Virus record (IMG/VR): IMGVR_UViG_2600254997_000020
Span: 1-23,978 of that record
Length of the DNA stretch: 23,978 nt
Origin: a virus
Taxonomy: Duplodnaviria > Heunggongvirae > Uroviricota > Caudoviricetes
Direction: 5' to 3' (one strand)
Shown here: positions 12,921 through 15,253 of the stretch, in pieces
Position numbering within the stretch: the first letter of the stretch is position 1
Layout of the letters: each line of letters begins with the position of its first letter
The notes under the pieces: generated by a model
Told to the model about the DNA's origin: nothing
Databases searched by the model: none
What the model saw: only the letters and a program-made list of their open reading frames with translations
Made by a program: the position numbers and the translations under genes

Positions 12921-13115
12921 AGGGGATTTTTATTTCTAGTAACTATAAGAGGTGTTAATTATTAATTGACAATCTTTAGTGTTTCGCGCACCTTGCAAGT
13001 ATCCAATATTTACTGATTGTGGACGCATAAAGAAGATCCACAGCGTTACAAATTTGTATTTCTTTCTTCAGCAATTAAGCAGGCGACTTGCTCTATCCTG
13101 CCCAAAGGAACACGT

Positions 13116-14471
13116 ATGACACACTGCAAAGAAAATACTTGGTATGAGCGTCAAGGGTACAATACCACCCGCCCGAATGAGATAAGGTCGGAGTATGAAC
13201 GTGATCTTTCCCGGTTAATCCACTCTTCCGCTTTTAGGAGATTACAATCGAAGACGCAGGTGTTGGGATTGGGCGAAAGCGATTTCTACCGTACGCGGCT
13301 AACTCACTCTATGGAAGTAGCGCAAATTGGCGGCGGTATCTTGTCTCAGTTGTCTAAGCGCGATACAGATGAGGGGGGTAAATTCTTACCTGACCCAAGC
13401 CTGATGCAGGCTATCTGCCTTGCTCATGATATAGGACATCCCCCCTTCGGTCATGGTGGTGAGGTCGCACTAAACTACTGCATGAGATCCTATGGCGGCT
13501 TTGAAGGTAACGGGCAGACACTGCGTATACTCTCCAAACTGGATAAGTACACCGAAACCAATGGGCTGGATCCCACCCGTAGACTTATTTTAGGCGTACT
13601 GAAATATCCAGCAAGCTATTCAGAGGTCGTCAATGAGAGGGCTTACAGCCAGTTACAGCCAAGAAGCAATGAGTGGTTGTTTAAATCATCCGAATTTAAG
13701 CCCCCGAAATGTTACCTGGACTCTGAGGAGAACACTGTTAGATTCGCACTCCAACCTTTTGATAGTGATGATGTTAAGTTATTCAAAACGGTAAAAACTA
13801 CCGCGTTGAATAAGCACAAGGAAACAATATATAAAGCACTGGATACAACGATTATGGACTTGGCTGATGAGATATCCTACTCACTCCATGATCTTGAAGA
13901 CGCAATTTCTCTGAAGATGATCGACAAAAAAATGTGGGAGGAGCACTTCGAGGACAAATCCCATTTATTTGCAGCTTGCCAATGCGACTCGTTTAATCTA
14001 AAAGCCGATGATGTAGCTGAAAAACTGTTCGGCGAAAGTTATCTACGCAAGGAGTGCATAGGGACACTTGTTCATCTGATGATCACTAGCGTTAAGCTTG
14101 AAGTGCAGAACTCTGATTTCAAAAGTAAAATTTTACGCTATAAAGTAGCACTTCCTGCCGCGGTAGAAGAGTTACGTAAAGCCATTTTTGAGCTGGTTAG
14201 GAACAAAGTTATTCAGCACGAAAACGTCCAACTATTAGAGTTCAAAGGTCAGAAACTGATTGTGGAACTATTCAATGTACTGGCAAATGACCCAATACGT
14301 TTTCTCCCGACAGAAACTCGAAAGAAATATAATCAAGAGGAAGCAAAAGGTGATGATAAAAAAATGCGCATCATTTGCGACTATGTTTCAGGCATGACAG
14401 ATGATTACGCTACTCGACTGTATGAGAAAATATTTGTACCGAGAAAAGGCTCTATTTTTGATAGACTCTGA
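13116..14471 (+). CDS. Dgt-family HD-domain dNTP triphosphohydrolase (dGTPase-like)
   Basis: Start chosen at ATG 13116 (AAGGA 7 bp upstream); the track ORF starts 33 codons earlier. N-terminus aligns with E. coli Dgt (RSEYERDLSRLIHSSAFRRLQSKTQV; RTRLTHSMEVAQIG; LAHDIGHPPFGHGGE; DLADEISYSLHDLEDAI). Gene is AT-rich relative to flanking P1-like DNA. Confidence 0.85.
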   Translation: MTHCKENTWYERQGYNTTRPNEIRSEYERDLSRLIHSSAFRRLQSKTQVLGLGESDFYRTRLTHSMEVAQIGGGILSQLSKRDTDEGGKFLPDPSLMQAICLAHDIGHPPFGHGGEVALNYCMRSYGGFEGNGQTLRILSKLDKYTETNGLDPTRRLILGVLKYPASYSEVVNERAYSQLQPRSNEWLFKSSEFKPPKCYLDSEENTVRFALQPFDSDDVKLFKTVKTTALNKHKETIYKALDTTIMDLADEISYSLHDLEDAISLKMIDKKMWEEHFEDKSHLFAACQCDSFNLKADDVAEKLFGESYLRKECIGTLVHLMITSVKLEVQNSDFKSKILRYKVALPAAVEELRKAIFELVRNKVIQHENVQLLEFKGQKLIVELFNVLANDPIRFLPTETRKKYNQEEAKGDDKKMRIICDYVSGMTDDYATRLYEKIFVPRKGSIFDRL

Positions 14472-14637
14472 TTTTTTTCTATTATATAGTACGTAGCCGG
14501 GTTCCAGAACCGCATAAAATTAGATCTGGATATAATTCATTTAATTATCTGTTATATGCCAAACATAACGATATATAATAGTGGATTAGATGTTACAACT
14601 TGACGCAGAATAAATAGCTTTTATTGGCGCATGATGC

Positions 14638-14664
14638 AAACCCCGCAATGAAGCGGGGTTTTAA
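14638..14664. terminator. Bidirectional rho-independent terminator between the dGTPase-like gene and the convergent small ORF
   Basis: AAACCCCGC-AATGAA-GCGGGGTTTT: 8-bp GC-rich stem, 6-nt loop, A-run on one side and T-run on the other. Confidence 0.55.
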
Positions 14665-14678
14665 CTGTGGTAAATGAG

Positions 14679-15047
14679 TTATAATCTTTTAATCAGGCTC
14701 TCAATATTAGTTGGTTCAAAGTAATGCTTATTAACCTCTCCATTTATGAGGAAACCGTCTTTTAGTAGTCGGTCTAGCTCACGCTCTGCTTCTTTGTTGA
14801 ACATACCTGGATATATTCTCTTGTACAACTGAAACGTACCATTCATATTCCTGTAAGCATTCTCAGCAATTTCAATGGAGATTTCATTTCCGGCGTTAAA
14901 TACAGGAATGAATATCTCAAGAATATCATTCTTTAACTTCTGTTTAAGTTTCTTTTTTTCAACAATATTAGAATAAAAGATACCTAAAAAAAATGTGCAG
15001 ATACCAGGAAGCCAATTATTAACGAAAACCTCAGACAAAGCGTCCAC
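14679..15047 (-). CDS. Hypothetical small membrane-anchored protein (122 aa)
   Basis: GTG start with GGAG upstream. One N-terminal hydrophobic helix (WLPGICTFFLGIFYSNIV) then a Lys/Glu-rich soluble region. About 32% GC. Convergent with the dGTPase-like gene. Confidence 0.5.
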   Translation of the reverse strand: MDALSEVFVNNWLPGICTFFLGIFYSNIVEKKKLKQKLKNDILEIFIPVFNAGNEISIEIAENAYRNMNGTFQLYKRIYPGMFNKEAERELDRLLKDGFLINGEVNKHYFEPTNIESLIKRL

Positions 15048-15253
15048 TATCTTACTCCAGAGTTAAGATTGATTCTCATAACGCACAAACTCCGTTCAAG
15101 GCGATTTTTATATTACAAACTATACATAAACGCTGATCAATATCTCCAGATTTTGTGTGCCTGTGCATGAATATGCACTAATCATAATCGACCAGAACTT
15201 CCGTTAATCGCTAAACTCGAACGATTCTAGCCACATAGACGATCTGTTAGTAT

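What the first reader, a model, noticed from the sequence alone, without database searches (positions are those of the whole stretch)
12921..15253. AT-rich accessory islet with a Dgt-family dGTPase-like gene: candidate nucleotide-depletion defence or exclusion locus
Between the IS50-like element and the Dar operon lies a segment with clearly lower GC than the flanking P1-like genes (roughly 32-42% against about 50-55% in sampled lines). It encodes a 451-aa protein with the Dgt HD-domain signatures (RTRLTHSMEV, HDIGHPPFGHGGE, DLADEISYSLHDLEDA). I recall no such gene in P1, and the equivalent position in P1 is a known variable site carrying IS1. Dgt homologs are known anti-phage effectors that deplete dGTP, so a resident phage-plasmid could use this to exclude superinfecting phages. 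The upstream region also has a perfect TTGACA at 12966-12971 but no convincing -10.
Basis: partly seen in the sequence, partly recalled or inferred. Interest (0 to 1): 0.7.

Follow-up and report, generated by a model that had tools for sequence, protein, structure and literature searches.

The report
Known anti-phage dGTPase on P1-like plasmid

Summary
A 451-aa ORF (13116-14471, +) carries the quoted HD motifs. It lies in a cassette of 39.8% GC, against 48-51% in the P1 core flanks. Homology to P1 and P7 stops at the ssb stop codon (about 11308) and resumes at the hxr stop codon (15254). P1 carries isaA-IS1-isaB in this slot and P7 carries nmpC.

The protein scores 570.7 bits on NCBIfam NF041026 'anti-phage deoxyguanosine triphosphatase' (cutoff 400) and 492.6 bits on the PADLOC dGTPase model. 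It is 60% identical to Shewanella Sp-dGTPase (PDB 9P8W). It is 81% identical to a chromosomal E. coli allele whose N-terminal 133 residues match the tested E. coli G177 dGTPase fragment at 98.5%. All catalytic residues are present, and dN/dS against that chromosomal allele is 0.12.

The exact protein is RefSeq WP_096845285.1, already named anti-phage dGTPase. The same islet is in 64 of 484 complete E. coli genomes that carry a P1-like element. Published work already lists this slot as a low-GC variable region and reports dGTPase systems on P1-like phage-plasmids.

Verdict: interpretation supported, already known, low interest. Still open are the promoter, the native defence phenotype, and a conserved 122-aa membrane ORF (14679-15047, -) whose homologues recur beside other defence genes.

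The parts
10820..11308 (+). ssb, the P1 core gene on the left flank. A C1 operator lies upstream at 10784-10800.
   Evidence: ORF. It is 97-98% identical to P1 and P7 up to its stop codon. The operator matches with 1 mismatch.
11309..11361 (.). Left stub of the accessory cassette. It holds the left arm of a hairpin followed by a T-run just downstream of ssb (CCCCTG-TTAATA-CAGGGG-ATTTTTATTT in uninterrupted plasmids).
   Evidence: Homology to P1 and P7 ends at 11306-11310. The uninterrupted sequence is seen in L001.
11362..12912 (-). ISEc13 (IS4 family, IS50-like ends), 1551 bp, inserted in the loop of that hairpin. The flanking 8-bp duplication GTTAATAC is at 11354-11361 and 12913-12920. The transposase reading frame is split into 375 aa and 127 aa pieces.
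   Evidence: It is 99.9% identical to annotated ISEc13 copies of 1550 bp. Junctions are, ORFs, Pfam Tnp_DNA_bind and DDE_Tnp_1.
12913..13115 (+). AT-rich region upstream of the dGTPase gene (36.5% GC). It contains TTGACA at 12966-12971 with no matching -10 hexamer. Only the last 75 nt or so are conserved with the chromosomal allele.
   Evidence: Identity to the chromosomal allele is 64% over 13041-13115 and about 41% further upstream.
13116..14471 (+). Anti-phage dGTPase (dGTP triphosphohydrolase), 451 aa, made of an HD domain and an HD_assoc domain. Predicted catalytic residues are H63, H104/D105, H113/E116 and an Asp in the DLADE segment (aa 248-252).
   Evidence: NF041026 570.7 bits against a cutoff of 400. 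PADLOC dGTPase 492.6 bits. Pfam HD and HD_assoc. PDB 9P8W E=4.6e-158. Identical to WP_096845285.1.
14638..14661 (.). GC-rich hairpin between the two convergent genes. It is a putative shared terminator, though its T-run is weak.
   Evidence: MFE -20.1 kcal/mol, z = -3.55 against shuffles. Sequence. The terminator scan did not call it.
14679..15047 (-). ORF122, a conserved 122-aa protein of unknown function with a hydrophobic N-terminal helix (GTG start, GGAG 7 nt upstream).
   Evidence: It is annotated as a hypothetical protein in all plasmids carrying the islet. It has 34 homologues, matches phrog_26730, and gives an all-helical AF2 model with pLDDT 75.
15048..15253 (.). AT-rich spacer upstream of ORF122, running to the right edge of the cassette.
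   Evidence: Homology to P1 and P7 resumes at 15255. A -strand promoter-like site lies at 15148-15119.
15254..15562 (-). hxr (called odaA in P7), the P1 core gene on the right flank, followed by ddrB (15552-18539) and darA (18914-20833).
   Evidence: DarA scores 1087 bits on NF052326.

Best explanation
The segment is an accessory cassette in the ssb-hxr variable slot of a P1-like phage-plasmid. Its main cargo is a stand-alone defensive dGTPase of the Sp-dGTPase / Ec-dGTPase family.

Shown here:
- The gene is intact and under purifying selection.
- It belongs to the curated anti-phage dGTPase family and keeps all catalytic residues.
- It is carried by a minority of P1-like elements at a slot where other elements carry different cargo.

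Inferred from characterised homologues:
- The enzyme binds a metal through H63, H104-D105 and an Asp in the DLADE segment (aa 248-252).
- It uses the H113/E116 dyad to hydrolyse dGTP to deoxyguanosine and triphosphate.
- In a cell that carries the plasmid this lowers the dGTP pool during infection by another phage, so the invader's DNA replication stalls. This protects the host and therefore the resident phage-plasmid.

By analogy with Sp-dGTPase, the protein should be active on its own and should need no partner gene. How expression or activity is restrained in uninfected cells, and during the element's own lytic growth, is not known.
For: Family membership:
- NF041026 570.7 bits against a cutoff of 400; PRK05318 562 bits against 383.
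- PADLOC dGTPase 492.6 bits.
- Pfam HD plus HD_assoc.

Homology to tested proteins:
- 60% identity over 432 aligned residues to PDB 9P8W, Sp-dGTPase.
- 81% identity to a chromosomal E. coli allele that is 98.5% identical over 133 aa to the tested E. coli G177 dGTPase fragment.
- D105 aligns with Sp-dGTPase D101, whose D101A mutation abolished defence.

Biochemistry of homologues:
- Sp-dGTPase depletes dGTP and raises dG in T7-infected cells.
- It hydrolyses dGTP in vitro without a partner.

Selection and distribution:
- dN/dS is 0.12 against the chromosomal allele.
- The cassette boundaries fall at the ssb and hxr stop codons, and P1 and P7 carry other cargo there.
- 64 of 5426 complete E. coli genomes carry the gene on plasmids, against 484 with P1-like hxr-ddrB.
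- DefenseFinder-based detection of dGTPase in E. coli P1-like phage-plasmids is reported in bioRxiv 10.1101/2025.09.12.675607.
Against: - This allele has never been assayed as far as I could find.
- No convincing sigma-70 promoter lies upstream. The one perfect -35 hexamer sits in sequence that is not conserved with the chromosomal allele.
- The AT-rich cassette could be transcriptionally silent.
- Two of the six dGTPases cloned by Tal et al. gave no substantial protection, so family membership does not guarantee a phenotype.
- A dGTP-depleting enzyme should also hurt the carrier's own lytic replication, and no self-immunity feature was found.
Confidence: 0.85

Rival explanations
1. The dGTPase is carried but essentially unexpressed. 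It would be a silenced, horizontally acquired AT-rich passenger with no current benefit in this element.
For: - No + strand promoter-like site lies upstream.
- The cassette is 35-43% GC.
- In this contig ISEc13 separates the gene from ssb transcription.
- The element itself looks damaged, with darB cut by an IS10-like copy.
Against: - The ORF is intact.
- It is at least 99.6% identical across the 64 E. coli plasmids and occurs on more than 1000 contigs.
- dN/dS is 0.12 against a diverged allele.
- A leader of about 75 nt is conserved between the two alleles, which suggests a retained expression signal.
Confidence: 0.08
2. The enzyme serves the phage-plasmid's own biology rather than anti-phage defence. 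It might compete with other plasmids or mobile elements, tune dNTP pools for its own replication, or shut down host DNA synthesis after induction.
For: - The gene lies directly downstream of the C1-controlled ssb on the same strand.
- Leaky read-through could therefore couple it to derepression.
- Phage-plasmids compete with co-resident elements.
Against: - A hairpin followed by a T-run separates ssb from the gene in uninterrupted plasmids.
- No C1 operator is found in the cassette at up to 3 mismatches.
- Close homologues occur in chromosomal islands and were shown to block phages when expressed alone.
- Only about 13% of P1-like elements have it, so it is not needed for the life cycle.
Confidence: 0.05
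3. The dGTPase and the convergent 122-aa membrane ORF form a two-gene system, with the small protein acting as regulator, sensor or anchor.
For: - ORF122 is present in every islet-bearing plasmid (64 E. coli plasmids each).
- It stays next to the dGTPase even where an IS1 has replaced the sequence beyond it.
- Its homologues sit next to other defence genes: PDC-S08 in Marinomonas and bSEFIR in Yersinia kristensenii.
Against: - The two genes are convergent and separated by a hairpin.
- The chromosomal dGTPase allele has no ORF122 neighbour.
- None of seven non-P1 contexts of ORF122 homologues contains a dGTPase.
- Sp-dGTPase and Ec-dGTPase worked as single genes.
Confidence: 0.07

Closest known systems
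Sp-dGTPase of Shewanella putrefaciens CN-32 (Tal et al. 2021/2022; crystal structure PDB 9P8W)
   Same: Same family and architecture (HD plus HD_assoc). Identity is 60% over 96% of the length. The HD motif, the HE dyad and the Asp equivalent to D101 are identical. It is a single-gene system.
   Different: The host and genomic setting differ, since this gene sits on a P1-like phage-plasmid. No biochemical or phage data exist for this allele. Hexamer formation was not tested.
Ec-dGTPase of E. coli G177 (Tal et al., Table S5) and its chromosomal relatives such as WP_057061554.1
   Same: The closest tested relative. Identity is 85% over the 130 aa that can be compared and 81% over the full length of the near-identical chromosomal allele. 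The leader sequence is conserved.
   Different: That allele is chromosomal, at the edge of a prophage-like island, has a GC content 5-10 points higher and lacks ORF122.
Housekeeping E. coli Dgt (PRK04926; PDB 4X9E/6OIY)
   Same: Same HD-superfamily dGTP triphosphohydrolase chemistry.
   Different: It scores only 142.9 bits against a cutoff of 405, and the PDB match is restricted to the N-terminal 110 aa or so. So the gene is not an ortholog of dgt.
Clover (CloA dGTPase plus CloB nucleotidyltransferase; PMC12265719)
   Same: The effector is a defensive dGTPase with the same catalytic residues.
   Different: There is no adjacent nucleotidyltransferase. CloA structures match only at E about 1e-24 over the HD core. 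Sp-type enzymes are active without an activating cue in vitro.
Human SAMHD1
   Same: Functional analogue: antiviral restriction by dNTP triphosphohydrolysis through an HD domain.
   Different: No sequence-level relationship was tested here. SAMHD1 has broad dNTP specificity and different regulation.
Variable region 2 of P1-like phage-plasmids (isaA-IS1-isaB slot; PMC9603915)
   Same: Same slot between ssb and hxr, and the same low-GC character.
   Different: The cargo here is the dGTPase plus ORF122, rather than isaA/IS1/isaB in P1 or a porin gene in P7 and JL22.

Membership tests
Anti-phage dGTPase (NCBIfam NF041026 / PADLOC dGTPase / Tal et al. family) | Full-length match above the curated family cutoff | tested here: met
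   NF041026 570.7 bits against 400, covering model positions 1-425 of 425. PADLOC PDLC02374 492.6 bits.
Anti-phage dGTPase (NCBIfam NF041026 / PADLOC dGTPase / Tal et al. family) | HD phosphohydrolase domain plus C-terminal HD-associated domain | tested here: met
   PF01966 at aa 61-134 and PF13286 at aa 345-437.
Anti-phage dGTPase (NCBIfam NF041026 / PADLOC dGTPase / Tal et al. family) | Metal-binding H...HD...D residues and the catalytic H-x-x-E dyad are intact | tested here: met
   H63, H104-D105, H113/E116 and the DLADE segment (aa 248-252) are present. They are aligned and identical to 9P8W. Residue roles are taken from PMC12265719.
Anti-phage dGTPase (NCBIfam NF041026 / PADLOC dGTPase / Tal et al. 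family) | Tal et al. homologue criterion: longer than 400 aa, at least 25% identity to Sp-dGTPase, at least 90% overlap | tested here: met
   451 aa, 60.4% identity, and aa 16-451 aligned.
Anti-phage dGTPase (NCBIfam NF041026 / PADLOC dGTPase / Tal et al. family) | Located in a defence island or a variable region of a mobile element | tested here: met
   It sits in the ssb-hxr variable slot of a P1-like element. It is present in 64 of 484 P1-like-bearing genomes.
Anti-phage dGTPase (NCBIfam NF041026 / PADLOC dGTPase / Tal et al. family) | Hydrolyses dGTP to dG plus triphosphate and depletes dGTP during infection | not testable with these tools
   Known only for Sp-dGTPase.
Anti-phage dGTPase (NCBIfam NF041026 / PADLOC dGTPase / Tal et al. 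family) | Lowers the plating efficiency of phages | not testable with these tools
   Shown for four of the six homologues cloned by Tal et al.. No report was found for this allele.
Housekeeping Dgt (PRK04926) | Score above the equivalog cutoff | tested here: not met
   142.9 bits against a cutoff of 405.
Clover (CloA/CloB) | Adjacent Pol-beta-type nucleotidyltransferase partner | tested here: not met
   The only neighbour is ORF122, which has no Pfam, NCBIfam or PADLOC match and is predicted to be all-helical.
P1-like phage-plasmid variable region 2 | Cargo lies between conserved ssb and hxr, with homology breaks at their ends | tested here: met
   BLAST breakpoints are at 11306-11310 and 15255 against both P1 and P7.

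The most novel reading that the evidence does not exclude
The conserved 122-aa single-helix membrane protein (14679-15047, -) may belong to an unrecognised, portable defence-associated family. It could be a small stand-alone exclusion or abortive-infection protein. It could also be a marker gene that travels at the edge of defence cargo slots. Its homologues lie directly beside a dGTPase here, beside the PADLOC candidate PDC-S08 (5'-nucleotidase-like) in Marinomonas, beside bSEFIR and an AbiV-like protein in Yersinia kristensenii, and beside an Mrr-type nuclease in Vibrio parahaemolyticus.

A second open point is how a phage-plasmid that needs dGTP for its own lytic replication tolerates its own dGTPase.
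Probability: 0.12. Interest if true: 0.45.

Novelty: already known. Interest (0 to 1): 0.15.

Why it matters
It adds little that is new. The family, its mechanism, its presence on P1-like phage-plasmids and the variability of this slot are all published or built into standard annotation. The locus is a clean example of a temperate phage-plasmid carrying host-protective nucleotide-depletion immunity in a cargo slot. Two modest practical questions remain. One is whether the native allele protects at native expression without harming the carrier's own lytic cycle. The other is what the co-travelling 122-aa membrane protein does.

Tried and rejected
- **ORF122 as an obligate partner of the dGTPase.** I examined the chromosomal dGTPase allele and seven non-P1 contexts of ORF122 homologues. 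The two genes never co-occur outside the P1 islet, so I rejected this as the main model.
- **Clover-type two-gene system.** There is no nucleotidyltransferase neighbour. Rejected.
- **Direct control by the P1 C1 repressor.** The operator consensus is found only at ssb (10784-10800) and weakly at 6939, not in the cassette.
- **Canonical promoter for the dGTPase.** None was found on the + strand. The TTGACA at 12966 lies in sequence not shared with the chromosomal allele.
- **Structured RNA in the cassette.** There were no Rfam matches at E up to 1 over 11300-15600.
- **Function of ORF122 from its fold.** The AF2 model is moderate (pLDDT 75). Foldseek against the PDB gave nothing below E = 1.
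- **Self-toxicity read from the phage record.** In the one phage record with the islet (vB_EcoM-673R5) the dGTPase is annotated as split. The two differences are 1-base deletions in G6 and C6 homopolymers. Other genes in that record are also split. This is most likely sequencing error, so I drew no conclusion.
- **P1 IsaA and IsaB as known defence proteins.** Neither has a PADLOC match.
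Full report
**What the window is.** The window is a complete 23,978-bp contig of a P1-like phage-plasmid. The exact dGTPase sequence is recorded on a contig of exactly that length.
- The gene order is darB' (1301-7009), prt, pro, lyz (10093-10749), ssb (10820-11308), an insertion sequence, the finding, hxr (15254-15562), ddrB (15552-18539), darA (18914-20833, NF052326 1087 bits) and the hdf-position ORF (20835-21446).
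- Other P1-like plasmids are collinear with 1332-22715 at 99.7-100% identity, apart from the insertion sequence.

**Checking the observation.**
- The ATG-initiated CDS 13116-14471 encodes 451 aa. The three quoted motifs are at aa 59-68, 104-116 and 248-263.
- The segment 12913-15253 is 39.8% GC. The CDS is 43.3% and the 3' part with the second ORF is 34.7%. The core flanks are 50.9% and 48.4%.
- The depression is real but uneven. The first third of the dGTPase gene is 45-50% GC.
- TTGACA is at 12966-12971, and no + strand promoter-like site is found upstream of the gene.

**Boundaries.**
- BLAST against P1 and P7 shows homology ending at 11306-11310, the ssb stop codon, and resuming at 15255, the hxr stop codon. 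The accessory cassette is therefore 11309-15253, placed between two convergent core genes.
- The cassette is interrupted at 11362-12912 by a 1551-bp element that is 99.9% identical to ISEc13, an IS4-family element with IS50-like ends.
- The IS is flanked by an 8-bp duplication, GTTAATAC. It sits in the loop of a hairpin plus T-run that follows ssb in uninterrupted plasmids.
- Fifty-two PLSDB plasmids carry the cassette without the IS.

**What occupies the slot elsewhere.**
- P1 has isaA-IS1-isaB here and P7 has the porin gene nmpC. JL22 has a porin gene, and RCS47 and SJ46 differ again.
- A comparative study of 77 P1-like phage-plasmids lists isaA-IS1-isaB as one of eight highly variable, low-GC regions (PMC9603915).
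- Among 5426 complete E. coli genomes, 484 carry P1-like hxr-ddrB and 64 carry this dGTPase allele, always on plasmids. That is about 13%.
- Only one of 50,697 phage records has it.

**What the gene is.**
- Domains: Pfam finds HD and HD_assoc.
- Family models: NCBIfam gives 570.7 bits on NF041026 'anti-phage deoxyguanosine triphosphatase' (cutoff 400) and 562 bits on PRK05318. The housekeeping Dgt model gets only 142.9 bits against a cutoff of 405. PADLOC's dGTPase model gives 492.6 bits.
- Solved structures: the best match is 9P8W (E = 4.6e-158), the crystal structure of Shewanella putrefaciens Sp-dGTPase. Identity is 60% over 432 residues.
- Tested E. coli homologue: the E. coli G177 dGTPase cloned by Tal et al. 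is 85% identical over the 130 residues available. A chromosomal allele 98.5% identical to that fragment is 81% identical to the window protein over its full length.
- Catalytic residues: H63, H104-D105 and the H113/E116 dyad are conserved. D105 aligns with Sp-dGTPase D101, whose D101A mutation abolished defence.
- Selection: dN/dS against the chromosomal allele is 0.12 (dS 0.95), so the gene is under purifying selection.
- Existing annotation: the exact protein is WP_096845285.1. Its V419 variant, WP_000148486.1, is on at least 1000 contigs. Both are named 'anti-phage deoxyguanosine triphosphatase' by RefSeq.

**Mechanism.**
- From homologues: Sp-dGTPase made dGTP undetectable and raised deoxyguanosine in T7-infected cells, leaving dGMP and dGDP largely alone. 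Four of six cloned family members protected E. coli.
- T7 escape mutants mapped to genes 5.7, 5.5 and 0.7, which modify host RNA polymerase. This suggests a link to host transcription shut-off.
- Purified Sp-dGTPase hydrolyses dGTP on its own, unlike the Clover effector CloA.
- By inference, the window protein hydrolyses dGTP to dG plus triphosphate and starves incoming phages of dGTP, which protects the cell and the resident plasmid.
- Not shown: activity, phenotype or expression of this allele. No paper testing it was found.

**Regulation remains open.**
- No canonical promoter is present.
- The perfect -35 hexamer lies in sequence unrelated to the chromosomal allele, at 41% identity. The last 75 nt or so before the ATG are 64% identical and may hold the real signals.
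- No C1 operator is in the cassette.
- In this contig ISEc13 also separates the gene from ssb transcription.

**The second gene.** ORF122 (14679-15047, - strand) is convergent with the dGTPase, across a stable hairpin (-20.1 kcal/mol, z = -3.55).
- It has a hydrophobic N-terminal helix, an all-helical model of moderate confidence, no family annotation and no significant structural match.
- It accompanies the dGTPase in all islet-bearing plasmids, but it is absent next to the chromosomal allele.
- Its homologues (55-86% identity) occur in Salmonella, Enterobacter, Yersinia, Vibrio, Marinomonas and Rheinheimera. None of these has a dGTPase nearby.
- They do lie in variable neighbourhoods. One is next to PADLOC candidate PDC-S08. 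One is next to bSEFIR and an AbiV-like gene downstream of a polyvalent protein. One is next to an Mrr-type nuclease. One is in a Salmonella island with an Eco57I-type enzyme.
- This is guilt by association only. I treat it as a lead, not as part of the dGTPase mechanism.

**Comparison with what is known, and verdict.**
- The locus meets every sequence-level criterion of the anti-phage dGTPase family. It fails the criteria for housekeeping Dgt and for Clover.
- A 2025 preprint using DefenseFinder already reports dGTPase among the defence systems of E. coli P1-like phage-plasmids.
- Remaining uncertainty concerns native expression, the phage spectrum and compatibility with the carrier's own lytic cycle.

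Noticed in passing
window 14679-15047 (-); homologues in L006-L021: The 122-aa membrane ORF belongs to a small unannotated family (phrog_26730). Its members sit beside different defence or candidate defence genes in unrelated bacteria: PDC-S08 in Marinomonas, bSEFIR and an AbiV-like gene in Yersinia kristensenii, and an Mrr-type nuclease in Vibrio. None of these sites has a dGTPase.
   Followed up: partly
window 11362-12912 with duplications at 11354-11361 and 12913-12920: ISEc13 is inserted in the loop of the hairpin plus T-run just downstream of ssb, with an 8-bp duplication GTTAATAC. The copy is 1551 bp against 1550 bp in reference copies, and its transposase frame is split (375 aa plus 127 aa). 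It is therefore either a frameshifted copy or a sequencing error. No other plasmid in PLSDB shares this insertion.
   Followed up: partly
window 68-1335 and 22712-23978: Both ends of the contig are inverted IS10-like (IS4-family) copies, 98-100% complementary. The left copy cuts darB, leaving an ORF of 1902 aa. The 21.4-kb P1 segment is bracketed in Tn10 style, or the assembly simply broke in repeats. Either way this P1-like element carries three IS insertions in 24 kb and may be defective.
   Followed up: partly
L004 (E. coli ABWA45 chromosome, NZ_CP022154.1 3624367-3639731): The 80%-identical chromosomal dGTPase allele sits at the edge of a prophage-like region near dsdC and torI. Next to it are a Dam-type methylase, an 8-oxoguanine glycosylase, a QueC-like 7-cyano-7-deazaguanine synthase and a PfkB kinase. 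This could be a deazaguanine-type DNA-modification or defence cluster.
   Followed up: no
L001 11727-12935 (NZ_CP091679.1): In a sister plasmid a TnpB-family RNA-guided endonuclease gene lies between ddrB and ddrA. It is absent from the window. The Dar operon is therefore another insertion site in these elements.
   Followed up: no
L022 (phage vB_EcoM-673R5, ON470615.2), equivalent to window 13373 and 13440: The only phage-database record with the islet annotates the dGTPase as two CDSs. The cause is single-base deletions in G6 and C6 runs. lyz and ddrB are also split in that record, which suggests homopolymer sequencing errors rather than real inactivation.
   Followed up: yes
window 13041-13115: The leader of about 75 nt before the dGTPase start codon is conserved between the plasmid and chromosomal alleles (64% against about 41% further upstream). 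It can form a small hairpin (GCAGG...CCTGC) just before the AAGGA ribosome-binding site. It might be a regulatory element.
   Followed up: partly
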